This document shows positions 3,825 through 36,565 of a DNA stretch of 37,795 bases, piece after piece. Each line of letters opens with the position of its first letter. Positions within the stretch are counted from its first letter, which is position 1. The position numbers were made by a program, and so were the translations under genes. The DNA is from Chiloscyllium plagiosum (Eukaryota), in contig NC_057760.1 of the NCBI RefSeq assembly GCF_004010195.1, positions 1,003,909-1,041,703 of the forward strand, given 5' to 3'. Under the pieces are notes generated by a model. That model was not told the DNA's origin and searched no databases. It saw nothing but the letters and a program-made list of their open reading frames with translations.

Positions 3825-3864
3825 GCTGACGTTTCGTCCCCTGTCTAGGTGACATCCTCAGTGC
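3825..3864 (-). ncRNA. Minimal type-I hammerhead ribozyme motif (stem I mismatch)
   Basis: Minus strand reads gca-CUGAGGA-u-GUCaCCU-agac-AGGgGAC-GAAA-CG-UC-agc. Confidence 0.6.
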
Positions 3865-3929
3865 TTGGGAGCCTCCTGTGAAGCGCTTCTGTGATGTTTC
3901 CTCCGGCATTTGTAGTGGTTTGAATCTGC

Positions 3930-4542
3930 NNNNNNNNNNNNNNNNNNNNNNNNNNNNNNNNNNNNNNNNNNNNNNNNNNNNNNNNNNNNNNNNNNNNNNN
4001 NNNNNNNNNNNNNNNNNNNNNNNNNNNNNNNNNNNNNNNNNNNNNNNNNNNNNNNNNNNNNNNNNNNNNNNNNNNNNNNNNNNNNNNNNNNNNNNNNNNN
4101 NNNNNNNNNNNNNNNNNNNNNNNNNNNNNNNNNNNNNNNNNNNNNNNNNNNNNNNNNNNNNNNNNNNNNNNNNNNNNNNNNNNNNNNNNNNNNNNNNNNN
4201 NNNNNNNNNNNNNNNNNNNNNNNNNNNNNNNNNNNNNNNNNNNNNNNNNNNNNNNNNNNNNNNNNNNNNNNNNNNNNNNNNNNNNNNNNNNNNNNNNNNN
4301 NNNNNNNNNNNNNNNNNNNNNNNNNNNNNNNNNNNNNNNNNNNNNNNNNNNNNNNNNNNNNNNNNNNNNNNNNNNNNNNNNNNNNNNNNNNNNNNNNNNN
4401 NNNNNNNNNNNNNNNNNNNNNNNNNNNNNNNNNNNNNNNNNNNNNNNNNNNNNNNNNNNNNNNNNNNNNNNNNNNNNNNNNNNNNNNNNNNNNNNNNNNN
4501 NNNNNNNNNNNNNNNNNNNNNNNNNNNNNNNNNNNNNNNNNN
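3930..4542. other. Assembly gap (613 N)
   Basis: Run of n. Confidence 1.
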
Positions 4543-4619
4543 CAACCAGAAGCGGCAGAGACAAACCACTATAAACGCCGGAGGAAACATCACAGAAGCA
4601 CTTCACAGGAGGCTCCCAA

Positions 4620-4659
4620 GCACTGAGGATGTCACCTGGACAGGGGACGAAACGTCTGC
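4620..4659 (+). ncRNA. Minimal type-I hammerhead ribozyme motif
   Basis: gca-CUGAGGA-u-GUCaCCU-ggac-AGGgGAC-GAAA-CG-UC-ugc; stem I GCA/UGC, palindromic ACGU stem III, predicted cut after 4656. Confidence 0.7.
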
Positions 4660-4939
4660 AACACAAATTCCCAGCTCGGCGAACAGAACCACAACAACTC
4701 CTGAATTCCAGGTATCATTCCTACATTGTACTCCCTCCAAGACTAATATATCCTTCCTAAGGTGTGGTGGTCAGGTCTGCTCACAGCACTCCAAGTGCAA
4801 AGTACAATAACAATCACAATCCTCTATATCCGGCTTGAAGGAGAGGAGTCAGGTTGGAACAAGCTGGAAACAGAACAAGTGCAACACTTCCCATTGACTG
4901 CTTTCTCTTCCTCATGCTCCCACCATCTTAGTCTTTCAA

Positions 4940-5200
4940 CTCATAAGAACAGGACCATTCGGTCTCTCTCACCTTTCAGTAGGATTGAATGATGCTCCAC
5001 CTCTGATAATTTCCCCATCAGCTCCCACATCCTTTGATTCACACAAATATTTACCAATTTGTTTACCCTGAGACTGTCATGAGTTCTAGACTCTTCAGAC
5101 TAGGAAGAAACAGCCTCTCAGCATCTATCGTGTCAATCCCTCTAAGAATCAAATTGCAATCACTTCTTAGTTTTCTGAACTCTAGAAGCACTGGTCGGTT
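4940..5200 (-). mobile_element. Degenerate CR1 3' fragment
   Basis: cataagaacaggaccattc...gaaacagcctctcagcatctatcgtgtcaatccctctaagaatc is antisense CR1 tail. Confidence 0.55.
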
Positions 5201-5329
5201 CTGCTCTCTGACTGGGCTCATGTTCCATGGAAGTCAGACAGCCTTTTAGTATTCCAGCCAAATGCCTGCCTTATGGTGCCATCACCCCATGGTGGGCATC
5301 ACAGAGGACAAGATTCACTCACCAGCAAC

Positions 5330-5600
5330 AGACAGTGAATGGCAATCTGCAACAGCCATTGCTGATTAATCCTCCTCTTGGCCTGGAGGTGGCACACAAA
5401 AATGCCAGAGTTTTTTTTTTTGTCTTACACAGATCAGAACAGAATTGCCAGACTAAATGGTATCCGACGGCAACTCCTTACGGAGAGTCTACTTGCCCAA
5501 CCAATCAGCATCTCCTTCTCATGCACTATAAATTGCTTCTCTTGGCATTCTTGCAATCCTGTCCTGGTGAGTATAAGGGCAAAAAAGTTTGGCTTTTGCT
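5330..5600 (+). mobile_element. Old PLE pLTR relic (CCAAT, TATA, decayed hammerhead)
   Basis: caaccaatcagc...tataaattg...gtcCTGGTGAgtataagggcAAAA; homologous to 33050-33200 on the minus strand. Confidence 0.5.
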
Positions 5601-5614
5601 TTAATGTGCTGTCA

Positions 5615-5780
5615 AAATAGGAGGAGCAGGCCATTCAGCCCATTGAGCACGCTCTGCATTCAGTGGGATCATTTAGTAGAACTCAGTACCCTGCTCCCCC
5701 CCCCACAAGCTTTGATCCCTTTAGCCCCAACTATACACAACTCCTTCTTGAAAATATTCAATGCTTTGGCCTCAACCAAT
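5615..5780 (-). mobile_element. CR1 3' tail fragment
   Basis: aataggaggagcaggccattcagccc...ccttcttgaaaatattcaatgctttggcctcaacc. Confidence 0.55.
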
Positions 5781-5839
5781 TTAAGTTTCTACGGGGCCAC
5801 CTCCTCATTTTCCTAAATTCCAGAGAATATTGTCCTAAT

Positions 5840-6140
5840 CACCTCTTATTCACATTCGTTCATTCCCTCCACTACCAAAGCATGGTGACAAGTAGTGTAC
5901 ACGCATCCACAAGATGCACTGCAGCCATTCACCCAGGCTCCTTCAAAAACACCTTCCAAACCTGCAATCTTCACATCCTACAAGGAGGGATGCAAAACTA
6001 AGGAACATTACCACCTGCAAGTTCAAGAGACACGTCGTCCTCACTTGGAACAACAGCACTCCTTCACTTTCACTGCTCAAAATCCTGAGTCTCCTCACCA
6101 GCACTGTGGGTGCCCCTGCACCACATGGTCTGCAGCAGTT
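5840..6140 (+). mobile_element. Old LINE 3' fragment (family of 2545-2975)
   Basis: cattccctccactacc...aagatgcactgcagc...accacctgcaagttc...cagcactgtgggtg. Confidence 0.55.
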
Positions 6141-6149
6141 TTTATTTAA

Positions 6150-6360
6150 TATTCATGCACGGGATGAGGGTGTCACAGTCTAGGCCAGTATTTGTTGCCC
6201 AACCCTAATTGCCCAAGGGCAGTTAAGAGGTTGCTGTGGGTCTGGGAGTCACACATAGGCCAAACCAAGTACAGATGGCAGTTTCCTTCCCTGAAGGACA
6301 TTAGTGAACCAGATGGGCTTTTCCCAACAATCAACAATGGATTCATGGCCATTAATTCCA
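6150..6360 (-). mobile_element. SINE 3' portion (family of 1560-1820)
   Basis: ggccagtatttgttgccc...tttccttccctgaaggacattagtgaaccagatggg. Confidence 0.55.
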
Positions 6361-6509
6361 TATTATTAAATTGGTTTCAGGTAGGTAATTCTTTGAAATT
6401 CGCATCACATATACATGGTTAAGGAGGTGCTTAGCACGCTTGCCTTCGTTGCTCAGACCTTTGAGTATATATTGAGGTTATAGAGGATGTTGGTGAGGTC
6501 TCTTCTGGA

Positions 6510-6837
6510 TGGAAATGTGTTGCTGGAAAAGCGCAGCAGGTCAGGCAGCATCTCTGATCTCCAGCATCTGCAGACCTCACTTTCTCCTCAAAGATTTCAA
6601 CCTACTGCGAATCCTCTTACAAGGATGCCTTCCTTGAAGAAGCTCTCTTTCTCCCTCTACAAAGGTTTCAGTGAGTCCCTCTCTCACTGCACCCCCCAGG
6701 TCATCTCCTCTGCACAGAAGCTCTTCAGCCACATTCTCAAACAGAAGTTCCCTAGATGCTGCCTGACCTGCTGCGCTTTTCCAGCAACACATTTCCATCT
6801 CTGATCTCCAGCATCTGCAGACCTCACTTTCTCCTCA
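6510..6837. mobile_element. Young rearranged PLE insertion with 15-bp TSD
   Basis: TSD gaggtctcttctgga at 6495-6509 and 6838-6852. The start (about 6510-6552) is the inverse of about 6755-6798. ctctgatctccagcatctgcagacctcactttctcctc occurs twice. Confidence 0.75.
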
Positions 6838-7236
6838 GAGGTCTCTTCTGGAGTAATGTGTCCAGTTCTGGTCACCCTGTTATAGGAAGGATATCATTAA
6901 ACCAGACAGGGCTCAGAAGAGATTTGCCATAATGTTACCAGGAAGGGAGGGGTTGAGTTATAAGGAGAGGCTGGAACCTTTCTACACTGGAGCATAGAAG
7001 GTTAAGTGCTGACCTTATAGAGGTTTATAAAATCATGAGAGTTATAGATAAGGTGAATGGCAGGTGTCTTTTCCCTCAGGGTGGGGGATTTCAAGACTAG
7101 AGGTGAAAGGAAAAAGACCTAAAAAGGACATGAGGGGCAATCTTATTTTAAACCAAAGTGGTCTGTGTATGGAATGAACTTCCTGAGTAAGTGGTGGATG
7201 TGAGTACAGTTACAATGTTTAAGAGACATTTGGATG

Positions 7237-7545
7237 AGAACATAGAACAGTACAGCACAGAACAGGCCCTTCAGCCCACAATGTTGTACCGACCAGTGAT
7301 CCTCATATATGCACCCTCAAATGTCTGTGACCATATGCATGTCCAGCAGTCTCTTAAATGTCCCCAATGACCTTGCTTCCACAACTGCTGCTGGCAACGC
7401 ATTCCATGCTCTCACAGCTCTCTGTAAAGAACCCGCCTCTGACATCCCCTCTATACTTTCCTCCAACCAGCTTAAAACTATGCCCCTCGTGTTAGCCATT
7501 TCTGCCCTGGGAAATAGACTCTGGCTATCGACTCTATCTATCTAT
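7237..7545 (-). mobile_element. CR1-group LINE 3' end nested in the + strand CR1
   Basis: agaacatagaacagtacagcacagaacaggcccttcagccc; minus-strand peptide RAVRAWNALPAAVVEARSLGTFKRLLD is a CR1 ORF2 C-terminal motif. Confidence 0.8.
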
Positions 7546-8229
7546 CTAGAAGAAGTAATGTTTTGAAGCACAGGCAGTAGGACAAGTTTAGTGTAGAACT
7601 ATGATCGACATAGACTGGTTGGACCGAAGGGTCTCTTTCCATGCTTTATGTCTCTATGACTGTAATTCACATTCCACCATCTGCCAGAGGAAGTTTTGAA
7701 TCCAGGTCCCCATAACAATACCTGGGTCTCTGAATTTTTCAATACAGCGATAATACCACTAGGCCACTGCCTACTCAATTCAAGAAGGCAGCTCACCACT
7801 ACTGTCTCAAGGGAGACACGGGGACAGGCAAGAGCCTGCACATTGTGGTGAGCAATACCAGCCTTATCAGCATTCACATTTTTGTGAAATATTAATCAAA
7901 ATGTTGAAAAATATTGATGGCACTTCACAGAAACGTAATAAGTCAAATATACATTGAGCCAAAGCAGGAACCATTAGGATGGAGTAACACCTTGGTCAGA
8001 GAGTTGTGTTTTAAAGGAAGATTACTCTCTCCACCACCGACAGAGTCAGGGCAATGTGTACCATCTACCAGATTCACTGGAACGACTACCAAGGCTCCTT
8101 CAACAGTACCTTCCAACTCATCACTTAGAAGGACAAGGGAAGCAGATACACAGGAACATCGCCCTCTCCGGGTGGCTAGTGACGAAATCACGAGCAAATG
8201 TAGAGACGGCTGGTGGGGAACACTCCAAA

Positions 8230-8450
8230 TGGCTGGAGACAGAGGACCATAGAAGCTCTCAGGAGGGAGAAGTTACAATGATAGGGACTAGGTGGGAGAC
8301 AGACAGACAGGTAAGATATAAAATCGAGGATCTGGATTTTCGAAACCAGGCTTTGCTCGACTAGGAGTCAACACGGATCAAGTGGGCATAAGGAAGACAG
8401 AGGAACAGCAATTGCCATATCAGGATACAGAGCAGCAGAGTTCTGGATCA
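8230..8450 (-). mobile_element. Highly decayed L2-type LINE fragment
   Basis: Ends in gcagcagagttctggatca (minus strand IQNSAA, as in L2 ORF2); similar decay at 31670-31830. Confidence 0.35.
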
Positions 8451-8879
8451 GTGGGACTAAAGCATTAGTTAGCAGAATTGAAAACCCTGGGACAAACATT
8501 CACTCGGCCACTAACTTTGAAAATTACACATCTTCACTTGCTCTTCACAGTAAGCCCTTAAAAAGGATTAAACTCAACATAATAATATTTCCTTAGTTGG
8601 GTGGAGATGATTAATTTTAATACTGCCCAAAGTGAAGAATGACAAAAAATGCTAAGATTTTTGCACCAATGAACACTCTTTGAACCAATGCTGGGAAGTA
8701 CATAGATCTGGGAATGGGACAGAATTACAGGAGGCTCAATCTCCCTTGCTGAAGTCCTTGTTTAATGAGTGCTGCCAGTCTATATCTAGTCACGAATTAT
8801 TGGCATGTAAATCACATCCGGACGGCAGATGTTCTGCATGGAACTGCACCCAGCAATAGTTAGAGCAGTTACTCTGTTG

Positions 8880-9400
8880 TCCAGTGCCCTAACCTACAAG
8901 CCGCTGTCACCCGATTGGAAGATGATGCCTTCTCAAGGTCAAGAGCTTTTGCTGTGAATCTCCAGATGAACAAACTGGCCAATTCTCAACCTGCAGGGCA
9001 GGTCTTTAGCCACATGTGGCAGTACGCCTCTGGAGGTAGATGGATCTGGACAGCAGGACATCAATTTGTGCTGCAGCTCCCTGGACAGGCTGTCACCATT
9101 CTAGATGACCAAGGCAAGACCCCCCTCTAGCCTCAATGCTGTCACTCTTCAGAGTGCTTGTGAAGCATTTTCTTTGCCCTCCACCGGACTGCAAGTCTTC
9201 GGAGAGTTGAGGAAAGGGGGGCCCATCGCATCCAGACACAGCACCTTGTCCATTACAGTTGATTTTTACAACAGATTTGCTGAATGCTTGTGGAGCTGCC
9301 TTCATGCAGCGTTTGACCATCAGTCCTGTCAAATCCCACTGAAGGATACAGCACAGATACTGATGGAATTTCTCCAGAACCAGTGTGTCTGGGTCTCGCT
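8880..9400 (-). mobile_element. Degenerate RTE-clade LINE ORF C-terminus
   Basis: Minus-strand peptides LEKFHQYLCCIL and GGGQRKCFTSTLK resemble RTE LERFHQRCLRRIL and GGQRKRFKDTLK. Confidence 0.6.
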
Positions 9401-9723
9401 GAATGGCACGGCAGGATTGATGGGCTTTTTGGTCTAGTCTTGTCTTTTCTAACATAGCATAGTAGTATGATGAAAACAACCACGCCACACTCAGGTGTAG
9501 ATGAAAGAAAAGGCTGCTCAGCACCTCTGGCCATTTGACAGTGGCCTCTAACTTTCCCATCTCCCTATGTACCCTTCAACTTCCTAATCAAACAATAGTC
9601 CATCTGACTTAACCCTTAACATATTCAATGACCCAGCTTCCAAATGACCTCCAGGGAACAGAATTCCACAGATTCACAAATCTCAAACTAAAGCAATTTT
9701 CATCTCTGCCCTAAAATGGAAGA

Positions 9724-9840
9724 TGCTGAAAAATGTGTTGCTGGAAAAGTGCAGCAGGTCAGGCAGCATCCAAGGAGGAGAGTCGACGTTTCGGGCATAA
9801 GCCCTTCTTCAAGAAGACCGCTGAAGACTCTGAAACCACT
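9724..9840 (-). mobile_element. Short PLE pLTR fragment with hammerhead motif (C3>U)
   Basis: aaatgtgttgctggaaaag...gacgtttcgggcataagcccttcttcaag; near-TSD cctaaa(a)tggaaga at about 9710-9723 and 9841-9853. Confidence 0.7.
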
Positions 9841-10026
9841 CCTAAATGGAAGACCCCAAGTTCCCTAGTTCCAAATCTCTCCCATAAGGGGAAGCCTCCA
9901 CCTGTGAGTCCATCAAGAATCTTGAGTGTTTCAATAAGGTCACCTCTCATTCATCTAAACTCCAATAGCCACAGACCCAGCTTATCCAACCTGTCCTAAA
10001 ATGGTAAACTTTGTCATCCCAGTAAT

Positions 10027-10136
10027 GAAAGCTTATGCCCGAAAAGTTAATTCTCCTGCTCCTCGGATGCTGCATGACCTGCTGTGCTTTTCCAGCACCA
10101 CATTCTCGAATCGAATCTCCAGTTCTCACTTTCTCC
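10027..10136 (+). mobile_element. Short PLE pLTR fragment, opposite orientation
   Basis: gcttatgcccgaaa...gatgctgcatgacctgctgtgcttttccagc; TSD catcccagtaat (10015-10026) versus cattccagtaat (10137-10148). Confidence 0.7.
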
Positions 10137-10334
10137 CATTCCAGTAATCAGACAAGTGATCCATTTTCAATGCTATTATATCCTTTCTTATATAAAGATA
10201 TAAAACTGTACACTGTACTCCTGATGGAGTCTTACTAATCCTCTGTATAACTGTAGCAAAACGTCCCTACTTTTATATTCTAAGCCCCTTCAAAAAAAAA
10301 CAACATTCAATTTGCCTAATTAAAAACAAAATAC

Positions 10335-10470
10335 TTTGGAGCTGGAAATCTGATTAAAACAGAAGTGCTGGAGAAACTCAGTAGGTCTGATGGCATTTAA
10401 GTAGAGAGAAACAGAGTTAATTTGAATCCAAAATTACTTATTTGCAACTGAAAGGGGCTGGAAAAATGGC
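10335..10470. mobile_element. Old PLE pLTR fragment (family of 16288-16455)
   Basis: gctggaaatctga...cagaagtgctggagaaactcagtaggtctg...gagagaaacagagttaa. Confidence 0.45.
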
Positions 10471-10489
10471 AAGTTTTATGCTGTAGACA

Positions 10490-10695
10490 GAGCAAAGTCA
10501 GCATGGCCCTAGCAGATAAACAGCGAGAGTCAGAGGGAGACTGGTGGGGGTTTAACCAGAGGGTCATCACCCCTTAAGCAAGAGGAAGAGATTGAGAAGG
10601 TGGAACCTTCATGGTACCCTGAGCTGAGAACTGTAACCGCTGGTATCACTCTGCATCGCAAACCAGCCACCCAGCCAACTGAGCTAACCAACCCC
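10490..10695 (-). mobile_element. tRNA-headed SINE
   Basis: Minus strand begins ggttagctcagttggctgg (A-box-like); second copy at 34745-34955. Confidence 0.55.
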
Positions 10696-13600
10696 GAGTA
10701 AGCAAAGGTGGGGTAGCGTTGAATAGCTTGTGGAGGTGGTCTTGAACAAAAGGCAAAGGGTGTGTTAATGATGGTAAAGGAGAAAGAGTGATGTGAAATA
10801 GGTGTAAATGAAAGTGCAGAGAGGTGGAAAAATCTCTGCTGGGGAGGCGGTGGGAGGGTTTAAAAAAAGAGAAAACCCAAGGAAACCACAGGACAGAGGT
10901 CACGCTCTGACATTGTTGAACTCAAGTCTAAAGGCTGTAAAGTGCCCGAGCAGATGTTAACCAGTCACGAACTCTAAACTCTGAATTGCCTCACCAAACC
11001 TTTCCCGTTCAAATGCCTCTGGAAAACTCCCTCTTTGATCAAGCGTTTGATTACCAGTCGTGATATTTCCTTACAAATCCTGGCATCAAGTTCTGACTTA
11101 TAATGTCCCTGTGACGCTATGTGGGACATTTATCACATTGAAGTCGCTAGGTAAAGTACGAACTGTTGTTGTTTATAAAGATAGGAGCTCGTGTTGCAGT
11201 GGGTAGTGTGCCTGACTGAGATGTTCTAGTTTTATGTTCCACTCCAGGATGTGGGTAATGCAGCCAAACAGATTGGTTATCTGCCAGTCAATCCTTCAGA
11301 TATACACCTCATCAGTCGGTAACAGTATGAGAGAGTATCCTGATCAACCAGGCCTGATACAACGTGGCACCCTTTAAGCACCTGGCAGCCCCTTCCATGA
11401 AAAAGGAGTCACGCTAACGGACATAAGCTTTGTTTGCTTTGATGCCACAGGCACGGAAGAGGTCATTTGCTAGCAAAGAACCTGGAAAGGAGGATGCTGG
11501 ATCAAAACATAATTGCGAGGAAATATTTATAACAATATGCTACATATCAGTTTTGCAATTGTGAGAGAGAACTATGCCTTGCTGAATTTCTAAGACCACA
11601 TCAAGTACCAAGGGGACATTGAAAAATGTTAAGAAGAGTGTGTAAAGTATTGGTAATCTCCCACTGACATATAGGCAGTTAATCATTGATGACACAGAGA
11701 GCAATCCAGCAAAGTATTGTACAAACTGACTACACCGATGGAGGACATGATTGATATGTGTAAGGGGTGGGGAGATGTCACAGATAGGATCAGTGAAAAG
11801 GAGCTTTTCCCCTTGGGGAGGGATCAGTGATCAGGGAGCACAGATTTATGACAAGATTTTTGATAAGGATATGAGAAAAACATTTCTCTCCCCAAGCGCA
11901 GACACCATGGGCCAAAGGCCTTTTTCTGTGCTTAGTGGATCTACAGCTCTAACACTGCAGTCAGTTCCTTTGCTGAAACACTCCGAAACATGCCCTTGTC
12001 AATTCCCACAGACGTCGTCTCAAATCAATTTCACAAGAATGCTGCCTACTAGCTGGCAAGACATCAAGAGATTTACACAGCTCGGAGTTGGTAGTCCTTG
12101 GCAAGTATCACTGTGTGTATCTCAAGTCGACTTTGCAACCAAGCAGAACCCTTCCTCATGAGTCAGATGCTTCATAGTAGATAAGCGGAGTCCAAAATGA
12201 ACCTTGGTTAATCGGTCATAATTGCGTTGAAGCAATTAAGAAGGAACTTGCCTTTATACAGTATATTTCACAATGTCAGGACATTCCAAAGTGCACAACA
12301 GTCAATTAAATACTTCTGAAATTTTAACATGGGAAACAGACAGGGAGGTCAGATGATCATTGGGAAAGTTTGTCTGATGGCCAGACAGGTAAAAGTTGGC
12401 AACATAAAATAAACCACCCAAGTCTGCCCTCACAGCAGGACAGTAGTAACATTCTCCGTGTCACCAGTTTGCGAGGGATGTGAAGGGCAATTATAAACTG
12501 CCCGGGGTCTTTACAGCCAAATACAATACCAGCCTGTCCATTTTAAAAATGTCGATGCAGAAACTGGATGAAAACAGAATGGGCCTTTGTTCTTCTCTTC
12601 CCTCACCTCTAAAGCCAACAGCTCGCAGAGGTCAAAAAGCAAACCTTGCAACAGGACTTGGACAAGGACTGAAGACTCTCAGTGGCAGCAACGAAACAGG
12701 AGTCAAGCAGCATGCAAAAACATCACATCAAAACATATTGCACACTACAAACTCAAAACCCTAGCTAAAACACTACAGTAAAAATAAACTTCACACTCGA
12801 CAGAAAACATGCCTTCATTTTTCTGATGCAAGAATCATTTACACGTAGAAGAAACTCCCTTACCTTTCGCCGACTTCTGAACAGAACAAAAGTGCCTTGG
12901 ATTCAGACTTTAGTCAACACGTGATTCCCGACCTAGTCATGAGGAATGCAAAGCAACTCACTATCTAACCTTTTCTCAAACCAGTGCTGATAACAGAGCC
13001 TACAGAGTGCCTTTGGAATATCCAGTCAGAGTCAGCCAGGCGACACCAGAAACCACAGCTGCATGCACACACATACATACCCACCTAAAATGGGCACACT
13101 TCCACCAGAGAATTAACACAACTCACAGTCGGTGTAATTACAGACTACAGCAACAAATTAAATGGTTTGCTTATCGCATGGCTGCCATACCAGTTAAAAA
13201 TATTCTGTTTTGCAAAGCAAGTTTACACTTAACTGGAGGTCAAAACTGATACCGATATAAATCTGAATCATTAAATATTGAAATACCTATTACAAAGTTG
13301 TCACCTGTTACTTTCCTTGCATTCCTCAGTCAGGTTTTGCAATAACCCTCTGCCTGGTAATAGGAATTTAATTCCTTTCCTAATGCCCACCCCATCCCAT
13401 GCCTGCATCCCCAAAGTTGTCAGCTCTCCTTGGCATCATGGGCAAGTCTAGTCCTTCTGGACAGCCAAACAGATGAGAGTTCTAAAAGCCAATCAAACTC
13501 CTGATGCAGCATACCATGTAAAGACAGTGTGGAGCTCTGGACAAGGTGAGGTTCTGACTTTGTGGTTTGTGCAAGCAGAGAGGTGGGGAGACAGCAAGGG

Positions 13601-14977: not shown

Positions 14978-15188
14978 GATTTGGAGGTGCCGGTGTTGGA
15001 CTGGGGTGTACATAGTTAAAAATCACACAACACCAGGTTATAGTCCAACAGGTTTAATTGGAAGCACACTAGCTTTCAGAGCGATGCTCCTTCATCAAGA
15101 CTATCACCTGATGAAGGAGCGTCACTCCGAAAGCTAGTGTACTTCCAATTAAACCTGTTGGACTATAACCTGGTGGTGTGATTTTTAA
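14978..15188. mobile_element. Non-autonomous PLE mini-element: inverted pLTR hairpin with 12-bp TSD
   Basis: Arms 15014-15097 and 15109-15190 are near-perfect inverted repeats; TSD ctctctaatcaa at 14966-14977 and 15189-15200. Confidence 0.85.
15105..15139 (+). ncRNA. Minimal type-I hammerhead ribozyme motif
   Basis: cac-CUGAUGA-a-GGAG-cguca-CUCC-GAAA-GC-UA-gug; stem I CAC/GUG, palindromic AGCU, predicted cut after 15136. Confidence 0.75.
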
Positions 15189-16287: not shown

Positions 16288-16455
16288 CAAAATCAGAAAG
16301 TGCCAGGGAAAGCTCCGTAAGTCTAGCAGCATCTGTGGAGAGGCAGCAGAGTTAATGTTTTGGGTCCGGATCCGAAGAATGGACAGTGGTCCTGAAAAGT
16401 TAACTGCTTTCTCTCTCCACAGATGCTGCCAGACCTCCAGCACTTTCTGATTTTG
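16288..16455. mobile_element. Older PLE-derived inverted hairpin
   Basis: aaatcagaaagtgc / gcactttctgattt and gcagcatctgtggagag / ctctccacagatgctgc; decayed core ccgaagaatgg...cctgaaaagtta. Confidence 0.65.
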
Positions 16456-17329
16456 GTTCTGATTTCAATTACAGTCCCTTTAGCAAAGAGTTCACAGTTG
16501 CTTCCACATTTCAACGAGTTCCAAATCTTACTTTGCAGCGTAATAACTCAGAGTCACTGCCTGCAAGAGATTTTGATTTGCTGCTTGATTTTTGACAAGT
16601 TTCTCAAATTCTCCAGCAACAGTAAAGCCTATTCTGATGATTCTTCCTGTCCCAGTCACATAAAACCCTTTGATAGCTGCAGAATGCTTCTCTTTGACTA
16701 GAGACCAGACCCTCTGACATTTGGTTATAGTCGCTCACAAAGTAAACTATCCTCTTTTTCTGACAGAACGTTGCTAGGTGAGCATGCGTTGCCCATTCCC
16801 AACTGCCTTCGAGAAAAGCAGAACACGGTGTTACTCAATACATAGAGAAGTCTGCACTCTCAATCAAAGAATAGTTACCTCTGACCATGATAACATGAAA
16901 CACTAAGCTCTTAATCAAGATAGAAAAGCTAATTAGTTACTTGAGATCCCAATTCTCTTTTAATCTTAAAAATAAGTGAACAAATCGCAACACAACTACT
17001 AACAATCTATTTTGTTCCTGCATTTACAAACCATGACCTACAAACATTTTCCACGGACTCAGGGAAACTCAGGAATCCCCTGCATTGTTGCCAAGTGTAA
17101 ATACCTCGAGTTCTTCTCTCAGGAAAACAGCTCAAGATTGCTCTGGATCTCCAGAATAATCAGACCAGCCAGACCCCCAGTATTTAAGATGCAATCTTAA
17201 AGTATAATAATCTTATAAAACCTCACAATTCTAATTTAATTCTAAATTCCAGGAGACTGCTGCCATGTCAGCTTGTTATAATTACGCTGCAAAATCTGGC
17301 TCTCTTCTTAGAATTACAAATTTACAAAT

Positions 17330-19554: not shown

Positions 19555-19862
19555 GTGGTTAGCACTGCTGCCTCACAGCGCCAGGGGCCAGGGTTCAATT
19601 CCCACCTCGGGTAACTGTCTGTGTGGAGTTTGCACATTGTCCCAGTGTCAGCGTGGGTTTCCTCTGGGGGCTCCAGTTTCCACCCACAGTCCAAAGATGT
19701 GCAGGTAAGGTGAATTGGCCATGCTAAATTACCTGTAGTCTTAGATGCAGGGGTAAATGTAGGGGAATGGGTCTGGGTGGGTTGCTCTTCGGAAGGTTGG
19801 TGTGGACTTTTTGGGCCGGAGGGCCTGTTTCCACACTGTAGGGAATCTAATCTAATCTAATC
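19555..19862 (+). mobile_element. HE1/V-SINE-like tRNA-derived SINE
   Basis: gtggttagcactgctgcctcacagcgccagggg, B-box ggttcaattccc, core gtgtggagtttgcacatt...gcgtgggtttcc, (aatct)n tail. Confidence 0.85.
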
Positions 19863-20079
19863 AGCATGACTTTATAGAGTAGCAAAGCAGGTTTGATAGA
19901 GCAAATTGCCAACCCCAGCTCCCATTCCCTTGGTTTCATGTTCCAGTCACCAGTGATCAGGAGCACAGGAAATCCCAGCTGATATATTTGCATTTTTAGT
20001 GCAGAGAATTCTTTTTTAATTCTTCCATGTGAGGCCAGCACTTGCTGCCAGTTCCCAACTGCCTCTTTGTCTCTAACCA

Positions 20080-20235
20080 AGAAACTGCAAGATGCTGGAA
20101 TCCAAAAGTAGACAGGCAGGAGGCTGGAAGAACACGGCAAGCCAGGGCAGCATCAGGAGGTGGAGAAGTCGATGTTTCGGGTGTAACCCTTCTTCAGGAC
20201 TGTGGGGTGGGTACAGGAGGAGCTGCAGATAAAGT
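20080..20235 (-). mobile_element. PLE pLTR fragment
   Basis: aactgcaagatgctggaatcc...gcagcatcaggagg...gtttcgggtgtaacccttcttcaggact, followed by a G-rich stretch. Confidence 0.7.
20167..20201 (-). ncRNA. Minimal type-I hammerhead ribozyme motif
   Basis: Minus strand AGUC-CUGAAGA-a-GGGU-uac-ACCC-GAAA-CA-UC-GACU; 4-bp stems I and II are perfect. Confidence 0.7.
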
Positions 20236-20289
20236 TGGGGGGGGGGGGGGGGGGTCACTGCGTTGTAGCAGTGAGAAAGGGTCTCACTT

Positions 20290-22785: not shown

Positions 22786-22980
22786 TGAGCAGTAGGTTCC
22801 TCCCAAATCATCGCTTTGTTCTAAGCCTATACTGAGGCAGTGGTAGAAATAAACACTGAGGAGAAAGTGAGGTCTGCAGATGCTGGAGATCAGAGATGGA
22901 AATGTGTTGAGCAGTAGGTTCCTCCCAAATCATCGCTTTGTTCTAAGCCTATACTGAGGCAGTGGTAGAAATAAACACTG
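22786..22980. repeat. Identical 73-bp direct duplication flanking a 49-bp PLE end
   Basis: 22786-22858 equals 22908-22980; the insert 22859-22907 is the reverse complement of 6787-6835. Confidence 0.9.
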
Positions 22981-24419
22981 CCAGAGGAGGCAGCAATACT
23001 ATCTTTCTGATGGAACCACAGTTCAGCCACGCAAGTCAATGACACGTCTTCCTGCGTGTACTGCCCGTGCATAGAGGACCTCTGAGGTTTCCCAAAGGCG
23101 CAAGTGTTTGATGGCTGAAGCACAGCAGGGCAGCTTCTACAACACTCGCATCAATGGCTGACACACATGGCTTGAAGGAACTGTTGCGGTACAAATGGTC
23201 CATTTGGTGAGGGGCAGAGTGCAGGAGTTAGGCAAGTGGGAAAAACAGAACTGCACGTTTTATAGCCGAGGGCTTCCCAGGAGAGCAGCAGGATTCAAAG
23301 CCTAAACCCGCATTGTCTGCCTCGCTGGCCTCTGCCCTCATTTATCTTCCCTTCCTGCAGTTGCTTCACATTAGAGTCCACACGCTCCTGATTAAAAATT
23401 GGTAAACAAGAGGAAAGCCAGTGAGTTTAGAGTACAGAGAGAAAGACAGCACAGTTCATTTGAGATTCAAACTGCAGCTCCTGGATGAATTGTTGGATGC
23501 TGCCCTACCTCCTAACACAGCAAACCCCAGTGCCACTATCATGCTTTCCTGAGCCACAGCCAGGAAGGCACAGAACCATCTGAAATTTCCTTGGTGGGAA
23601 ATTAAGTTGTAAAGCTCCTGCTACATGACCAGCTGAGCAACTCCAGCTATTTTGCTGCTTCTGCTTAGAAACAGGTTTCCAATTCAGAATTTAGTTAGAT
23701 CGTACACACTGGCATGTGTGCATTTACATGGAGTTGGGGAAACGAGGCCACAAATGTGCAGAGACTCCAAACTTGTGAGCTAACATACTCCAAAACCAGA
23801 AGCAACTTTTAAAAAAAGACAAAAAAAGAGCGCAGAAGCCACCGTGACACTTGCTCATTTTTCCAGCCAGGCACCAGCTCGACAGGAGGGGTGGGAGGGA
23901 CGGGGGGGGGGGGGGGGGCTGGTTTTTGTAAACAAACCACGACCCATTGATGTCCATTCATACCAAAGGTAGAAGCATGGCTATAAGTTCAGCGAACAAA
24001 CATACACCCCGAACCTCAACCTTAGCTACACATCTTCTCAAAACTCACTAAGGCAGAAGCATATTAGGGTCAATCAGTGAAGACAACTCGCCCTTTCCAA
24101 CACGGACAACCTAAATGCTGGGTGTTGTGAATGCAAATCAGATTCCCTGGTTAATTGGGTTCTTCTTCCCCTTGCACAGGAATGTGACGTTTCACAGTCA
24201 CACTCAGTACTGTGCAAGGTCAGACACAGACACAATATCCCCTGAAGTTCTTCTAGCATGAGATTTATGAGCTGGGAGGAGAGGATAGAAGACCCTCCTA
24301 CGCCGAAACTTCAGAAACAAAATCTAGTGTTAGGTTGCTTCCGGTGCTATATTAGTGCCACCAATTTCTGGTATCCACATCTCATGTGAACTTGCCAGAC
24401 TTGCTAACACTGCTGGCAC

Positions 24420-29525: not shown

Positions 29526-29544
29526 CAAGCTTGGACTGCAGGTT

Positions 29545-30195
29545 CATAGTTCCATTAAAGTGGAGTTGCAGGTAGACAGCGTGGTGAAGAAAGTCTGATA
29601 TGCTTTCCTTTGTTGGTCAGAGTATTGAGTACAGGAGTTGGGAGGTCATGTTGCGGCTGTACACGACATTGGTTAGGCCGCTGTTGGAATTCTGGTCTCC
29701 CTACTATAGAAAGGATGTTATGAAACTTGAAAGGGTTCAGAAAAGATTTACAAGGATGTTGCCAGATTGGAAGGTTTGAGTTATAGGGAGACGCTGAATA
29801 GGCTGGGGCTGTTTTCCTTGGAGCGTCGGAGGCCAAGGGATGACCTTAGAGAGGTTCAAGAAATCATAAAGGGCAATGGATAGGGTGAACAGACAAAGTC
29901 TTTTCCCCAGGTTAGAGGATTCCAAAACCAGAGGGCATAGGTTTAAGGTGGTGGGGGAAAGATTTTAAAAGGAACCCGAGGGGTAACCTCTTCATGCAGA
30001 GGGTGGTGCGTGTCTGAAACGAGCTGCCAACACTTAAAAGGCACCTGGATGGGTAGATGAATAGCAAAGGTTTTGAGGGATATGGCCCAAATGCTGACAA
30101 GTGAGACTAGGTTAGTATCTGCAGAATATTTGGTCAGCATGGACAAGTTGGGCTGAAGGGTCTATTTCCATGCTGTGCATTTCTATGACTATGAC
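29545..30195 (+). mobile_element. CR1 (HER1-like) ORF2 C-terminus and 3' tail
   Basis: GQSIEYRSWEVMLRLYTTLVRPLLE / WSPYYRKDVMKLERVQKRFTRMLP; tail gggctgaagggtctatttccatgctg...ctatgactatgac. Confidence 0.85.
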
Positions 30196-30664
30196 CTGAC
30201 AATACCACCATTCCCAGGATTGGTCAGACAAACTGTCACTGTGCTGGCTATATGGAAGATATATCTTTTAACACAGACTAGCACTGCAACTCCATGTCTG
30301 TACCATACATTTATACAGTGCTTTGATAACAGAACACTGGGAGCTGAGGGGATAAGGTGGAGAGTGGTGCTGTCATTCTGAAATAAGTTTTAATTTGATT
30401 GGATTGGTGAGCAAAGCCTGGAACTGATGGAGGCAATGGGAACCCACACAGGATCAGAACGCATAACACGACTGTCAACAGTGGTGATGTGTTGGGCAGG
30501 ACAGGGAGGTTTGATGGCAAAAAAGAAAACGCTGGAAGGCCAGGGACAACTCAGAATTTGGTTCAAGCTTCTAGTACAATGAAACAGCCCCAGGATCTTC
30601 ACAAAAAAATACCAGAAATCAAAGTTTGACACCAAGCCAAGGATGCTGTTTTATATAAAGACAT

Positions 30665-30975
30665 TGAATCCCTGCAGTGTGGAAACAGGCCATTCAGCCC
30701 ATCGAGACCTACACACACCGCCCATCCTAACCCTGTAAGCCTTCCAATGTCTAATCCACCTAACCTATACAACCCTAGAACACGATGGGCAATTTCCCAC
30801 CAACAATCCACTTAACCTGCACATCTTTGGACTAGTAGGAAACCAGAGCATCCAGAGGAAACCCACGCAGACACAGGGATGACATGCAAATTCCAAACAG
30901 CAAGTTGCCCAAGAGTGGAATCAAACCCTGGCCCTTGGCGCTCCGAGGTAGTAGTGCCAACCATGGAGCCACCAT
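30665..30975 (-). mobile_element. HE1/V-SINE-like SINE
   Basis: Reverse-complement homolog of 19555-19862. Confidence 0.8.
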
Positions 30976-30984
30976 GCCATCCCC

Positions 30985-31265
30985 ATTTGGAGATGTGGGT
31001 TTCATTGGCCTGGCTACTATTTATTGCCCATCCCCAAATGTCCACGAGAAGTGGGAGGTGAGCAGTCTTCTTGAACTAGTACAGAGATTCAATGTTGGTG
31101 CACCTACAGTTCTATTAGCGAGGGCATTTCAGGATTTTGACTCGGCAACACTGAAGGAAAAGTGGTATACTTCCAAGTCAGGAGGGTGCAGGGGTGGTAC
31201 TCCCTTGCATCTGCTGCCTTTGTCCTTCTTGATGGGTATGGTCAAGGGCGTGGAAGGTGCTGTCC
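30985..31265 (-). mobile_element. Old LINE 3' end (family of 2545-2975)
   Basis: atttattgcccatcccc...ggtgagcagtcttcttgaac...ttccaagtcagga...catctgctgcctttgtccttct. Confidence 0.55.
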
Positions 31266-32665: not shown

Positions 32666-33049
32666 TGTCTGTGCCGGCTCTCCAAAAGGAGCAATTCATC
32701 TAGTGGTTATCTCCTCATAGCTTTGCACAATTTTCCTTTTCAAATTACAGTCGAATTCTCTTTTGAATGCTGCAAGTCAAACGTTCTGCCTTTCCGGAAC
32801 ATATACACTCACTGTCGCTCTTCCATATCTTGCCATTTCTGAGCATAAGTTAGAATTAGGTTTGTTGTCACAAAAAGGGAAAGTACATACCCAGCAATCA
32901 ATGCAAACTCAAACAAAACTGTGAAACGTGGTCCTTGCAAAAGGAAATTCTTCAGGGTATACTATTTTTTCCGTTTGCTGATGAACAAATGGAAAAATAT
33001 ATTTCTTTTGGAGTAATAATCTTGCTGATTTAGAACTAAAACATGGCTG

Positions 33050-33570
33050 AAAGGAGACAAGAAGCGTTGCATTTTACACTCACCAGGACTAGGACATAAG
33101 AAACAAACTTGATAACATAAACACCAATTCATACAAGATGAGAATACGACGCTGACTGGTTGTGCCGTCACTGAAACAGAGATACAGCAGGAACAATTAA
33201 CCGATCTTAATTCCCAGACCAAGTGGGTGGATTATGATTGGTCAAGGTGTTGTCCTGGAAATGCGCCAGCGATTGGCTATCTCTATCGCCCCTTTTTCTT
33301 CCAAGAGAAGGGGGTGCAAACAAATGCACAAATTTCTTTTGCCTACATAAAACAGGATCCTGTGTCTTACCATTTGTAGTTTACAGCACAGTCTAATGCA
33401 TCACTGGCTGATGATCGTAAGTTGGCTTCCAGAGTAACATTTAGCACGGTCTGGATTATTTAACAAATAGCAAGCCCAACAGCAGAATCACATCGAAGGG
33501 TAGACATACTTTTGATGCTTGCAATCACAGGGCTGATAGTACTCAATCAGTATGTTTCCTGCTGCAATTG
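33050..33570 (-). mobile_element. Degenerate PLE 3' end: GIY-YIG endonuclease C-terminus plus pLTR
   Basis: Minus strand RCDSAVG, then (frameshift) LLNNPDRAKCYSGSQLTIISQ, then TQDPVLCRQKKFVH; followed by CCAAT boxes and a decayed hammerhead gtcCTGGTGAgtgtaaaatGCAAcgctTC. Confidence 0.65.
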
Positions 33571-33919
33571 GTTAACAAGATGTACCACTGCACCACAAAA
33601 GCCCTCCAAATTAACATTTCCTTTATTTTCTAATCAACCTGTTCAGAGATGTTATCATTCACCTCTGAAGCAGATAAGACTTGAATGCGGGGCCTCTCAA
33701 TCCAGAGTTTGCAACAATACCACTGAGTCATGAGCTCCTTAAACTTAACAATTCATTCACATCATATGCACGTGACATCAGCAGAAATAAAAAAGACGTT
33801 TACACTTCTATGCAAGTTGTTGTAAAGTACATTCAAAAGTGCATTTTAAGGAATGGTGACCTCCAGACTAACAGATAAACTTTCTGCTCTCAACATCAAT
33901 TATCAAAGGATCCAAAAGT

Positions 33920-34065
33920 GGACGGGTATATGAATAGGAAGGGTTTGGAGGGATACGGGCCGGGTGCTGGCAGGTAGGACTAGATTGGGTTGGGATATCT
34001 GGTCCGGCACTGACAGGTTGGACCGTAGGGTCTGTTTCCGTGCTGTACATCTCTATGACTCTAAG
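33920..34065 (+). mobile_element. CR1 (HER1-like) 3' tail
   Basis: ggacgggtatatgaataggaagggtttggagggata...gggtctgtttccgtgctgtacatctctatgactcta. Confidence 0.8.
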
Positions 34066-34254
34066 AGTCCTAGCTAGAATCTCTCATTTCAGAGTCTCCA
34101 TTTTAAACACTCTTCACACAAGGGTGCATCTGAACCCTTAAATAGTTTAAAAAAAAGATTAATAGAAGCTAAGATTTCTGTTGCACTTCCGAGGAGTCAG
34201 TCATCACTCATAGTTCACACATGCACCTCATGAGTCACAACGTTAGGTATTCAT

Positions 34255-35025
34255 GTCCCAAATAAATCTAGGCTAACACTCCAGTGCAGTACTGAGGGTG
34301 TTGTACACTGTCAGGGGTGTCATTTTTGATTGATACTTCAAGCAGATGCCCGCTCTACCTGCCCTCTCATGTGGACAGTAACAATCTCAAATCACAGAAT
34401 TATTACAGTAGAGGAAGGGGCCATTTTGCCCACTGTCATCTACACCAACTGTCCAAGTACTGTTCTTCTGCCTACTCTTCATTATTTCGGCACAATCTTC
34501 ACATCAGCAGTCTAACTTGGTTCTGAAATGTTTCAATTCAACACTCCTCCATTACACTGTCTGGCAACACCTTCTCTGTACAACAAGGTACAACCAGATC
34601 AGTCACCTGGGGCCAAGATATATCCTTCAAAACACAAATATATTGTTCACTCATTACCCCTTGGTTGCTTGTGGGATCTTGCTGTTACCATTTGCTGCAC
34701 TTCCCTCATAACAAGGGTAACTACACTGTCCCTAAAGTAAAAAAAAAGGTAGAGGTAAAGTCACCGTAATACCAGAGGAGGGAGACAGAACTAGTGATGA
34801 GTTTAACCAGAGGGTCACCATGCCTCAGACAGGGGGAAAGAGGTTATGAAGGGCAGTCCTTCATAGTAAACTCAGCCGGTACAGAAATTTTAAATCATGC
34901 TGTTGGCACCACTGCATCATAAACCAGCTGTCCAGCCAACTAAACTAACTGGCTCATTCACAAAAGTACTCTGGTGCTTGACAAACAGAGAGGCCGTGAA
35001 AGGCACTATAGAGGTACAAATCTTC
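34255..35025 (+). mobile_element. Deu-domain SINE relic (SacSINE1/AmnSINE1-like), split by two insertions
   Basis: ctccagtgcagtactgaggg...ctgccctctcatgtggac; gtgggatcttgctgt...actacact; gtgaaaggcactata tail. Confidence 0.55.
34745..34955 (-). mobile_element. tRNA-headed SINE (family of 10490-10695)
   Basis: gtttaaccagagggtcacca...aaaccagctgtccagccaactaaactaac. Confidence 0.55.
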
Positions 35026-35047
35026 ACTCTTTTCTGTCACTCTTGAA

Positions 35048-35370
35048 GGGTGGCACAGTGGCTAGAACTGCTGCTTCACAGCAATAGGGACCCGGGTTCG
35101 ATTCCAGCCTCAGGCAACTGTCTGCATGGAGTATGCACATTCCCTCAGTGTCTACATGGATTCCCTTGGGTGCTCCAGTTTCCTCCCACAGTCCAAAGCT
35201 GTGCAGGTTAGGGTGGATTGGCGATGCTAAATTGCCTATAGTGTGCAGGTTAGGTAGATTAGCCATGGGATATGCAGAGTTAAAGGGATGGGTTGGGTCT
35301 AGGTGGGATGCTGGTCGGTGTCGGTGTCGACTTGATGGGCCAAATGGGCTGCTTCCACACTATAGGGACT
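35048..35370 (+). mobile_element. HE1/V-SINE-like SINE
   Basis: gggtggcacagtggctag, B-box ggttcgattcc, cccacagtccaaag...gcttccacactataggga. Confidence 0.8.
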
Positions 35371-35899
35371 TTATGAATATGACTTGAGCTAACGTCATCA
35401 TTTCAAATTACATGGAAACAATGGCTATTTGGACAAGGTGTTGCCAGACTCAATAATCTCAATGTTTGCTTAAAAACTACTTTTCACACAACACAACACC
35501 CGAAGTAGGTTAACAGAAAAGTTCATTTTACCTCCAACAAGGAGGAGGAGAGAACTCAAATACAGTGACATGCTGCAAAGGTTTAGGTAAAAGAAATGTT
35601 TTCAAAGGAAAACATTTTTAGCCAAAGCCACAGCTCATTTCTCTGCCCAATAAACGTAATGCACAGGAGTTTTGCTTTGGCAAATTTAATTTTACCAACA
35701 GTAGAGCATATGGTTGATAACAACAAAAGGTAACAATCTTATCTTGGAAAACTGGATGCCCAAAGATGCAAAACTTAATACACGCTGCTTTCTTGGAAAG
35801 AAATCTAAAATGATTGCCATTGTATAAATTCTGGTAGCACTGAGACTTGAGAGTCCAAATCACAGTATACTTCTTCAGAGTACTGTGTATATTATAGGA

Positions 35900-36450
35900 G
35901 TGATGTGACAGCGTTGGAGGGGGTGCAGCAGAGACTTACCGGGATGTTGTCAGAAGTCAGAACCAGGTTCCAGCCCAACAGGTTTATTTGAAATCTCAAG
36001 TTTGAAGTACACTTCACCTGATGAAAGCTCTGAAAGCTTGTGATTTTCAATACACCTGTTGGACTTTAACCTGGTGTCATCTGACTTCTAACTTTGTCCA
36101 CCCCAGCACCTCCACATCATGGCTACCAGACGTTGTCTCTGCTGGACGGATACAGATATAAAAAAAAAACTTTGGAGCACTTAGGTTGCTTTTCCTGGAG
36201 CAGAAATAGCAGAGGAGCAACTTGATTGAGGGGTACAAAATGGCAAGGGTTATAAATGGGGTAGACAAGCAGAAACGTTTTCCCTTACTGGAAGGGTCAA
36301 CAACCAAGAGCACAGATTGGAGGTAAAGGGCAGGACGTTGAGCAGGAATTCTTAAAGAAAGAATTCGATTTCAGCCAGAGGGTTGTAGATATCTGGAAGG
36401 CATTGCCTGAAAGGGTGGTACAGGTGCAATATTTAAGCAGTATTTAGATA
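35900..36450 (+). mobile_element. CR1 ORF2 fragment interrupted by a PLE hairpin
   Basis: LEGVQQRLTGML before 35952; LEHLGCFSWS...NLIEGYKM after about 36170. Confidence 0.6.
35952..36125. mobile_element. Older PLE hairpin related to 14978-15188, opposite orientation
   Basis: ccaacaggtttattt / acacctgttgg arms; core cacCTGATGAaagctctGAAAgcTT with stem II partly deleted. Confidence 0.7.
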
Positions 36451-36459
36451 AAACGCAGC

Positions 36460-36565
36460 ATTCAGCTCTGACCAAAGTGTCATCCAGATTCAAAATGTTA
36501 GCTTGCTCTCTCTCCACGGATGCTGCCTGACCTGCTGCGATTTCCAGTATTTTTTTCTTTTCAGT
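36460..36565 (+). mobile_element. PLE pLTR fragment with decayed hammerhead
   Basis: ctctgaccaaagtgtcatccagattcaaaatgttagctt...gatgctgcctgacctgctg. Confidence 0.55.

What the first reader, a model, noticed from the sequence alone, without database searches (positions are those of the whole stretch)
3825..36500. About a dozen hammerhead ribozyme motifs from several PLE families in 38 kb
Seen: intact or near-intact CUGANGA-(extra nt)-stem II-GAAA-NN-UH cores at 3825-3864(-), 4620-4659(+), 9782-9812(-), 15066-15099(-), 15105-15139(+) and 20167-20201(-). Decayed cores lie near 5563, 10030, 16372, 33085, 36018 and 36467. Stem II differs between families (GUC/GAC, GGGC/GCCC, GGAG/CUCC, GGGU/ACCC) while the core and pairing are kept. 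Established: Penelope-like pLTRs carry minimal hammerheads that are thought to cleave as dimers through a palindromic stem III (here ACGU, AGCU). Inference: this genome holds a very large, diverse pool of ribozyme-bearing PLE derivatives, probably poorly catalogued.
Basis: partly seen in the sequence, partly recalled or inferred. Interest (0 to 1): 0.7.

Follow-up and report, generated by a model that had tools for sequence, protein, structure and literature searches.

The report
Penelope retroelement ends with minimal hammerheads
These motifs are the short, mostly decayed end-pieces of several Penelope-like jumping-gene families, each carrying the small hammerhead ribozyme motif already described for such elements; the window is average for a genome that holds about a hundred thousand intact copies, and the copies here are likely inert.

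Summary
The dozen motifs are real but less intact than stated. Only 4620-4659(+) and 15105-15139(+) pass a strict minimal-hammerhead descriptor; four carry one lesion and six are decayed. They are 3' ends (pLTR plus tail) of endonuclease-bearing Penelope-like elements: families A, B, C and D lie downstream of GIY-YIG frames elsewhere in the genome. Family consensuses covary in stems I and II. The window is average: about 296 remnants per Mb in 100 unselected stretches, and 97,617 exact intact cores of four families genome-wide, against the 4,000-9,000 published for coelacanth and frog. Side results: 61 of 61 two-armed insertions pair a long tail with a short one; many copies start just before the ribozyme, not at its cut site; family B RNA is polyadenylated about 30 nt past the cut site. 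Cleavage was not shown. The kind is known (PMC4209133), and this scan noted all of it before on other DNA.

The parts
3749..4698 (.). Family A (Penelope/Poseidon-type) head-to-head insertion: long-tail arm on -, short-tail arm on +, centre is an assembly gap; 11-bp target-site duplication at 3737 and 4696
3825..3864 (-). Family A minimal hammerhead, core intact, first stem I pair broken
4620..4659 (+). Family A minimal hammerhead, intact
5561..5592 (+). Decayed family E core (both core boxes mutated); weakest assignment
   Evidence: alignment; not recovered by the profile
6508..6837 (.). Inverted family C tails (short and long), no hammerhead, around about 200 bp of other sequence; 15-bp duplication at 6495 and 6838
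9719..9832 (-). Family C (Neptune-type) single short-tail copy; hammerhead 9782-9812 with C3 to U; 10-bp duplication at 9714 and 9844
10018..10146 (+). Decayed family C copy, 5' core box lost
10355..10420 (-). Old F2-type end without a recognisable core
14978..15188 (.). Family B (Neptune-type) 211-bp fold-back insertion, long tail on -, short tail on +; 12-bp duplication at 14966 and 15189
15066..15099 (-). Family B hammerhead, C3 to U, stem I lost at the inversion junction
15105..15139 (+). Family B minimal hammerhead, intact; predicted cut after 15136
15148..15168 (+). ATTAAA hexamer (15148-15153) and the positions (15165, 15168) where family B RNA reads carry poly(A); the reads come from the family, not shown to come from this copy
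16288..16467 (.). Old family F fold-back insertion, decayed core at 16369-16404(+) and a truncated opposite arm
20079..20246 (-). Family D copy; hammerhead 20167-20201, core intact, stem III palindrome lost, likely by CpG decay
22859..22907 (-). Family C tail-only insert between two copies of a 73-bp duplication
23986..24050 (+). Tail remnant resembling the A-group families, no core
33032..33114 (-). Decayed family E copy, core at 33058-33089
35962..36126 (.). Old family B-type fold-back copy; core at 36015-36042(+) with stem II shortened by a deletion
36457..36563 (+). Decayed family G copy, core at 36465-36502

Best explanation
The motifs are 5'-truncated insertions of the hammerhead-bearing ends (pLTR plus tail) of several endonuclease-bearing Penelope-like retroelement families, and the copies in this window are likely inert relics that decay after insertion. 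Shown: family identity, linkage to GIY-YIG frames, target-site duplications, long/short tail asymmetry, covariation between families, genome-wide abundance. Inferred: the element's protein cuts both target strands and starts reverse transcription inside the element's RNA at two sites, roughly 45-100 nt downstream of the predicted cut site. One cut strand would take the distal start (long tail) and the other the proximal start (short tail). Each cDNA then crosses the uncut hammerhead. In the Neptune-type families it often stops a few bases 5' of the core, likely because the transcript starts there. Every insertion therefore leaves one or two hammerhead motifs. The ribozyme fold is likely under selection only in the active source elements, where cleavage would need a partner copy or the element's protein.
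For: GIY-YIG motif upstream of the hammerhead on the same strand: 349 nt in 4 of 8 family A cases with a downstream core within 1.2 kb (318-350 in the others), 895 nt in two family B loci (635 across a gap in a third), 322-409 nt for D; family C cores follow the endonuclease frame in most of L157-L166 and L177-L185. L196 holds a DKG motif, an RVT_1 match (E 1.1e-5, below Pfam's cut-off), a CX4CXXC linker and a YIG motif, then a family B hammerhead. L187 and L134 match Pfam GIY-YIG above cut-off. Consensus pairing: stem I 29 of 30 and stem II 39 of 40 pairs, against 16.4 and 24.2 when 3' arms are shuffled among 10 families; 0 of 20,000 shuffles reached either. Family I has U3-A8 in 7 of 7 copies and 1,076 exact genome matches. 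61 of 61 duplication-bounded two-armed insertions are long+short, 34 of 34 in the unselected sample. 52 of 71 C1 copies keep 10 nt or less 5' of the core; all 6 family I loci fetched share only a few bases 5' of the core. Older families show CG to CA/TG change in the stem III palindrome. Literature: PMC4209133, PMC11167929, PMC3846280, PMC8557442.
Against: No full-length element with two direct pLTRs and an unbroken frame was recovered among the 20 stretches fetched for it. Families E, F, G and I were not linked to a coding frame; they are assigned by the motif and, for F, G and I, by the shared tail. Family A does not show the 5' pile-up: 18 of 20 copies run 60 nt or more upstream. Part of the pile-up in C may reflect subfamilies with other upstream sequence. 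Five of 65 head-to-head pairs were not long+short (none had a duplication found). RNA reads show no start pile-up at the proposed transcript start, though that library is poorly suited. The families are related, so the shuffle values are not true probabilities.
Confidence: 0.9

Rival explanations
1. The short copies are independent non-autonomous retrozyme- or SINE-like elements that spread through their own ribozyme-cut or circular RNA.
For: Most copies are 80-250 bp and carry no coding sequence. A few short direct tandems exist (L170, L177). A preprint reports tandem retrozymes in one cartilaginous fish (10.64898/2026.07.22.740005).
Against: No tandem array in the window. 5' ends do not fall at the cut site: within 2 nt in 0 of 10 (A), 0 of 46 (B), 4 of 77 (C2) and 4 of 132 (C1) hits. 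Arms form a length series that runs into the PLE coding frame, and the inversion junctions differ from copy to copy.
Confidence: 0.06
2. The copies are active host-co-opted ribozymes and their clustering here has a regulatory role.
For: Two copies are intact. Family B RNA is abundant, mostly sense and polyadenylated in one RNA run, so some copies elsewhere end transcripts.
Against: The density equals the genome average. Ten of twelve motifs are damaged. Unique parts of window 4543-20300 had no reads in run X6, of which about 2% was read. Inverted pairs sequester the motif in predicted folds. Read depth does not dip at the cut site (1111, 1086, 1170 in successive 10-nt bins).
Confidence: 0.03
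3. The motifs are chance matches to a short, loose pattern.
For: Rfam finds no hammerhead. With one core mismatch allowed, the window's excess over shuffles is small.
Against: 59 strict hits in 0.97 Mb against 0-2 in three Markov controls. Reversed-pattern controls give 0 genome-wide against 70,555, 14,042, 11,944 and 1,076.
Confidence: 0.01

Closest known systems
Minimal type I hammerheads (min-HHR) of metazoan Penelope-like elements (Cervera and De la Pena 2014, PMC4209133; parts 1-2 of 4 of the text read, 2 supplementary files searched, 1 not searchable)
   Same: Extra base between positions 9 and 10.1, G10.1-C11.1 pair, palindromic 15.2-16.2, many consensus families per genome, mostly single truncated copies, opposite-strand pairs 100-700 bp apart, U3-A8 core variant.
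   Different: Scale: at least 97,617 exact intact cores here against about 4,000 (coelacanth) and 9,000 (Xenopus tropicalis), counted with different descriptors. Stems are shorter here (stem I 2-4 bp, stem II mostly 4-5 bp). No shark term was found in the supplements searched.
EN+ PLE insertions with inverted pLTR, one-sided tail and target-site duplication (Arkhipova 2013, PMC3846280; Craig 2021, PMC8557442; passages read)
   Same: Head-to-head inverted ends, a 30-40 bp tail at one end, a duplication of about 8-15 bp, heavy 5' truncation.
   Different: Those passages call the tail optional and explain the inversion by self-priming or by endonuclease resolution. Here the long+short rule held in 61 of 61 two-armed insertions.
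PAc Poseidon element of the green anole (Frangieh 2024, PMC11167929; parts 1-2 of 4 read)
   Same: Two adjacent internal reverse-transcription starts that define the tail, cleavage and extension of both strands, hammerhead not needed for insertion, no RNA-seq reads ending at the cut site.
   Different: In vitro work on one Poseidon element. Here genomic evidence only, for one Poseidon-type and several Neptune-type families.
Non-LTR retrozymes (Li, Clavereau, Pollet 2026, bioRxiv 10.64898/2026.07.22.740005; parts 1-3 of 5 read, supplements closed)
   Same: Type I hammerheads in PLE-derived, non-coding repeats; present in one cartilaginous fish.
   Different: Defined as direct tandem repeats with a hammerhead in each unit. 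The window's copies are single or inverted.

Membership tests
Endonuclease-positive Penelope-like elements | RT with DKG motif followed by a C-terminal GIY-YIG endonuclease, upstream of the pLTR | tested here: met
   Family B in L196. Endonuclease motif upstream of A, C and D cores. Not shown for E, F, G, I, nor within the window itself.
Endonuclease-positive Penelope-like elements | Inverted pLTR, one-sided 30-40 bp tail, target-site duplication | tested here: met
   Window insertions at 3749-4698 and 14978-15188; 61 of 61 two-armed insertions.
Endonuclease-positive Penelope-like elements | Full-length or partial-tandem copy with direct pLTRs and an unbroken frame | tested here: inconclusive
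   None among 20 stretches fetched; many contain assembly gaps.
Neptune clade (B, C) versus Penelope/Poseidon clade (A) | CX2-5CXXC linker between RT and endonuclease present in Neptune/Nematis, absent in Penelope/Poseidon (PMC8557442) | tested here: met
   CX4CXXC in L196 (B) and L187 (C); none in the 45 residues before the YIG motif in family A frames. Does not separate Neptune from Nematis.
Neptune clade (B, C) versus Penelope/Poseidon clade (A) | Placement in an RT phylogeny with reference PLEs | not tested
   No named reference PLE proteins were fetched.
Minimal type I hammerhead of PLEs | Core CUGANGA / GAAA / UH with extra base, stems I and II that covary across families | tested here: met
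   Met by family consensuses; met in full by 2 of 12 window copies.
Minimal type I hammerhead of PLEs | Palindromic stem III that can pair only between two copies | tested here: met
   ACGU or AGCU in A, B, C, I consensuses; predicted duplex only -1.7 to -2.5 kcal/mol, and free co-folding did not favour the dimeric ribozyme fold.
Minimal type I hammerhead of PLEs | Self-cleavage as dimer or with protein help | not testable with these tools
   Poly(A)-primed reads cannot show the cut products; no end pile-up seen.
Non-LTR retrozymes | Two or more direct tandem units, each with a complete hammerhead | tested here: not met
   No tandem repeat in the window; pairs are inverted.
Rfam hammerhead families | Match to a curated covariance model | tested here: not met
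   No hammerhead family among 7 matches at E up to 10.

The most novel reading that the evidence does not exclude
In the Neptune-type families the hammerhead is the very 5' end of the capped element transcript, starting about four bases before the core, so cleavage would cut off the cap-bearing first 30-35 nt and act as a switch on translation or packaging, not as a unit-length processor. Each insertion is written by a protein dimer that primes both cut strands, one at the distal and one at the proximal internal start. The hundreds of thousands of mini-insertions in this genome would then be a readable record of the PLE transcript start and both reverse-transcription starts.
Probability: 0.3. 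Interest if true: 0.65.

Novelty: new member of a known kind. Interest (0 to 1): 0.3.

Why it matters
As a finding about this window it is ordinary: a known motif of a known element class at the genome's average density. Three things have some value. The scale, about 10^5 intact cores by direct count, is at least ten times the vertebrate counts in PMC4209133, and Rfam misses these motifs. The sample offers many natural variants, including a compensatory U3-A8 core, for ribozyme tests. The strict long+short tail rule and the 5' ends at the motif's edge give cheap genome-scale tests of how Penelope-like elements integrate and what their hammerhead does, both still open (PMC11167929, PMC8557442).

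Tried and rejected
Rfam: no hammerhead; the weak microRNA-family matches at 15054-15152 reflect the fold-back hairpin. Tandem repeats: none. Host gene: none of 32 window frames of 100 aa or more matched Pfam; host context was not pursued further. A solved-structure search with the L196 frame gave one weak RT match, E 0.46. The sequencing-run search listed no RNA holder on record; run X7 laid no reads (no test); X1 and X2 are contigs. The MAFFT alignment of 13 representatives misaligned stem II, so pairs were counted by anchored register in scripts. One search used copies picked for good pairing and is biased, so (consensuses) is the test I rely on. The loose family E pattern matched mostly noise and was dropped. 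Hypothesis that copies start at the ribozyme cut site: rejected. Hypothesis that the poly(A) reads reflect genomic A-runs: 1 of 118 genomic contexts had an A-rich stretch, and no A-run is among the six DNA loose ends listed (273 further rows not shown). Extrapolating from the 100-stretch sample overestimates exact counts by about 1.5-fold (40 in 0.97 Mb against 97,617 in 3,556 Mb including gaps), so I give ranges. The Lunse 2016 dimer paper (PMC5785218) is not held; I saw only its title in a reference list, and it may cover such sequences. A search for 'twin priming' with Penelope gave two unrelated listings; Penelope, pLTR and polyadenylation gave two listings, one checked and unrelated on this point.
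Full report
Observation. The six named cores are at the stated places, with the stated stem II sequences. A strict minimal-hammerhead descriptor accepts two of them, 4620-4659(+) and 15105-15139(+); 60 dinucleotide shuffles give 0.03-0.08. The other four each have one lesion: a broken first stem I pair (3825-3864), C3 to U (9782-9812, 15066-15099), or loss of the stem III palindrome (20167-20201). Family profiles recover five of the six decayed sites and a second arm near 16360(-); the 5563 site rests on an alignment only. Rfam reports no hammerhead and there are no tandem repeats.

What the motifs belong to. The window is G000:C51:1003909-1041703 in a 3.56 Gb genome. That it is a shark rests on my recall of its repeats and on other agents' notes, not on a test. 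Each of the four young families has over 1,100 first-look candidates in the genome. Longer copies run into PLE coding sequence. A YIG endonuclease motif lies 318-350 nt upstream of family A cores, 895 nt upstream of two family B cores and 322-409 nt upstream of D cores. Family C cores follow the endonuclease frame in most loci fetched by protein search. L196 carries a DKG motif, an RT match (Pfam RVT_1, E 1.1e-5, below cut-off), a CX4CXXC linker, the endonuclease, a CA-rich 3' region and a family B hammerhead, with a stop and a frameshift. By the linker criterion in PMC8557442 (passages), B and C are Neptune- or Nematis-type and A is Penelope/Poseidon-type. Families F, G and I share the C-type tail but were not tied to a frame; E is tied by motif only. 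No intact full-length element turned up in 20 stretches, many of them gapped.

Consensuses of 10 families (E left out, too decayed) keep 29 of 30 stem I pairs and 39 of 40 stem II pairs; shuffling 3' arms among families gives 16.4 and 24.2, and none of 20,000 shuffles reaches the observed values. The families are related, so this is not a true probability. Changes on both sides are plain: the third stem I pair is G-C, C-G and U-A in A1, A2 and A3. Family I has U3-A8 in place of C3-G8 in 7 of 7 copies and 1,076 exact genomic matches; PMC4209133 reports the same swap in Schistosoma. In older families the stem III CG has turned to CA or TG in most copies, as expected for methylated DNA decaying without selection (established knowledge). 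Selection on the fold therefore likely acted in source elements, not on these copies.

Scale. In 100 stretches of 10 kb at fixed round coordinates on large scaffolds (0.97 Mb without gaps) the strict descriptor finds 59 motifs against 0-2 in three Markov controls. Profiles find 287 remnants covering the hammerhead region, 296 per Mb, bootstrap range 256-338. Four random stretches hold a median of 11, so a dozen in 38 kb is average. Exact whole-genome counts of intact family patterns are 70,555 (C), 14,042 (B), 11,944 (A) and 1,076 (I), total 97,617, with reversed-pattern controls at 0. The sample runs about 1.5-fold above the genome-wide rate for these patterns. My estimates are therefore 1.4-2.1 x 10^5 descriptor-intact motifs and 0.7-1.0 x 10^6 remnants. 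PMC4209133 gives about 4,000 for coelacanth and 9,000 for Xenopus tropicalis with another descriptor.

Arrangement. The window's pairs are head-to-head, bounded by 11- and 12-bp duplications, with one long-tailed and one short-tailed arm. One transcript would hold only one of the two motifs in sense. For the 15 kb pair the predicted fold is a single hairpin with stem I and II probability 0. Across all loci, 61 of 61 duplication-bounded two-armed insertions are long+short, including 34 of 34 from the unselected sample. Of 272 hits, 118 had no duplication found, and 49 duplication-bounded entries had no second arm (some of these are likely chance 9-mers). Five of 65 head-to-head pairs were not long+short and had no duplication. 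The shape is described in PMC3846280 and PMC8557442 (passages), where the tail is called optional. PMC11167929 shows in vitro that a PLE protein cuts and extends both strands and starts reverse transcription at two internal sites that define the tail. The simplest reading, which is inference, is that each cut strand takes one of the two starts.

5' ends. Copies do not begin at the cut site: within 2 nt in 0 of 10, 0 of 46, 4 of 77 and 4 of 132 hits. In family C1, 52 of 71 copies keep 10 nt or less before the core, 3 keep 11-59 and 16 keep 60 or more; in the unselected sample the figures are 27, 3 and 12 of 42. The six family I loci fetched share only a few bases before the core. Where a purine replaces the templated base before the last four letters, it is G in 13 and A in 2 cases, not all independent (this check followed note e1-8027663). 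That fits run-off at a capped transcript start. Family A does not show the pattern (18 of 20 run 60 nt or more), and subfamily differences may inflate it.

RNA. One single-cell poly(A) run, X6, about 2% read, gives no reads on unique parts of window 4543-20300 and many on the repeats. On a single family B copy, sense depth stays near 1,030-1,180 across the hammerhead with no dip at the cut site. It falls to 386 and 200 after position 7530, and 338 plus 413 reads carry poly(A) 29 and 32 nt past the cut site, 12-15 nt after ATTAAA. Only 1 of 118 genomic contexts has an A-rich stretch there. So uncut, polyadenylated family B RNA exists. This library cannot show cut products, so it neither shows nor excludes cleavage. 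These RNAs end before both tail ends and so cannot be the insertion template (inference).

Comparison and verdict. This works like, and meets the testable features of, the minimal hammerheads of metazoan PLE pLTRs. It fails the retrozyme test of direct tandem units. I found no published count for a cartilaginous fish (searches; supplement search, one file not searchable). The Lunse 2016 paper, the preprint's supplements, Dfam and Repbase were out of reach and may cover it. Earlier notes of this scan report the same density, tail rule, 5' edge and poly(A) site on other DNA of this and other genomes; they are leads, not support. Verdict: new members of a known kind, interest 0.3.

Noticed in passing
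window:22786-22980: A 73-bp exact direct duplication flanks a roughly 50-nt tail-only family C insert, far longer than the usual 9-17 bp duplication.
   Followed up: partly
window:6508-6837: Inverted family C tails, one short and one long, enclose about 200 bp of other sequence; 15-bp duplication, no hammerhead. The origin of the enclosed piece was not traced.
   Followed up: partly
L196:7512-7532; window:15148-15168: Family B ends carry a used poly(A) site about 30 nt past the predicted cut site, with a GU-rich stretch behind it; scattered copies could end host transcripts.
   Followed up: partly
L197-L202 and others (family I, not in the window): A family whose core is UUGACAA (U3-A8 swap), 1,076 exact matches genome-wide.
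   Followed up: yes
L170:2265-2430; L177:4300-4451: Short direct tandems of hammerhead units with periods of about 129 and 118 nt, retrozyme-like by the preprint's definition.
   Followed up: no
window:5561-5592, 33058-33089; L150-L156: Old family E has no extra base, a stem II of about 2 bp and a 6-nt palindrome in stem III; no coding frame was linked to it.
   Followed up: partly
window:15054-15152: The fold-back insertion scores weakly against microRNA precursor models, below gathering scores; such hairpins could be a source of double-stranded RNA or false microRNA calls.
   Followed up: no
window:37001-37795: CpG observed/expected is 0.81 in the last kilobase, against mostly 0.14-0.5 elsewhere; possibly the edge of a promoter island.
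   Followed up: no
window:19543-19863, 30662-31264, 35041-35387, 6373-7541, 29530-30203: Other abundant repeats; by recall SINE-like and CR1 LINE-like ends. Not tested.
   Followed up: no
L192:7385-8717; L196:8025-8999: Long minisatellite arrays that give spurious open frames.
   Followed up: no
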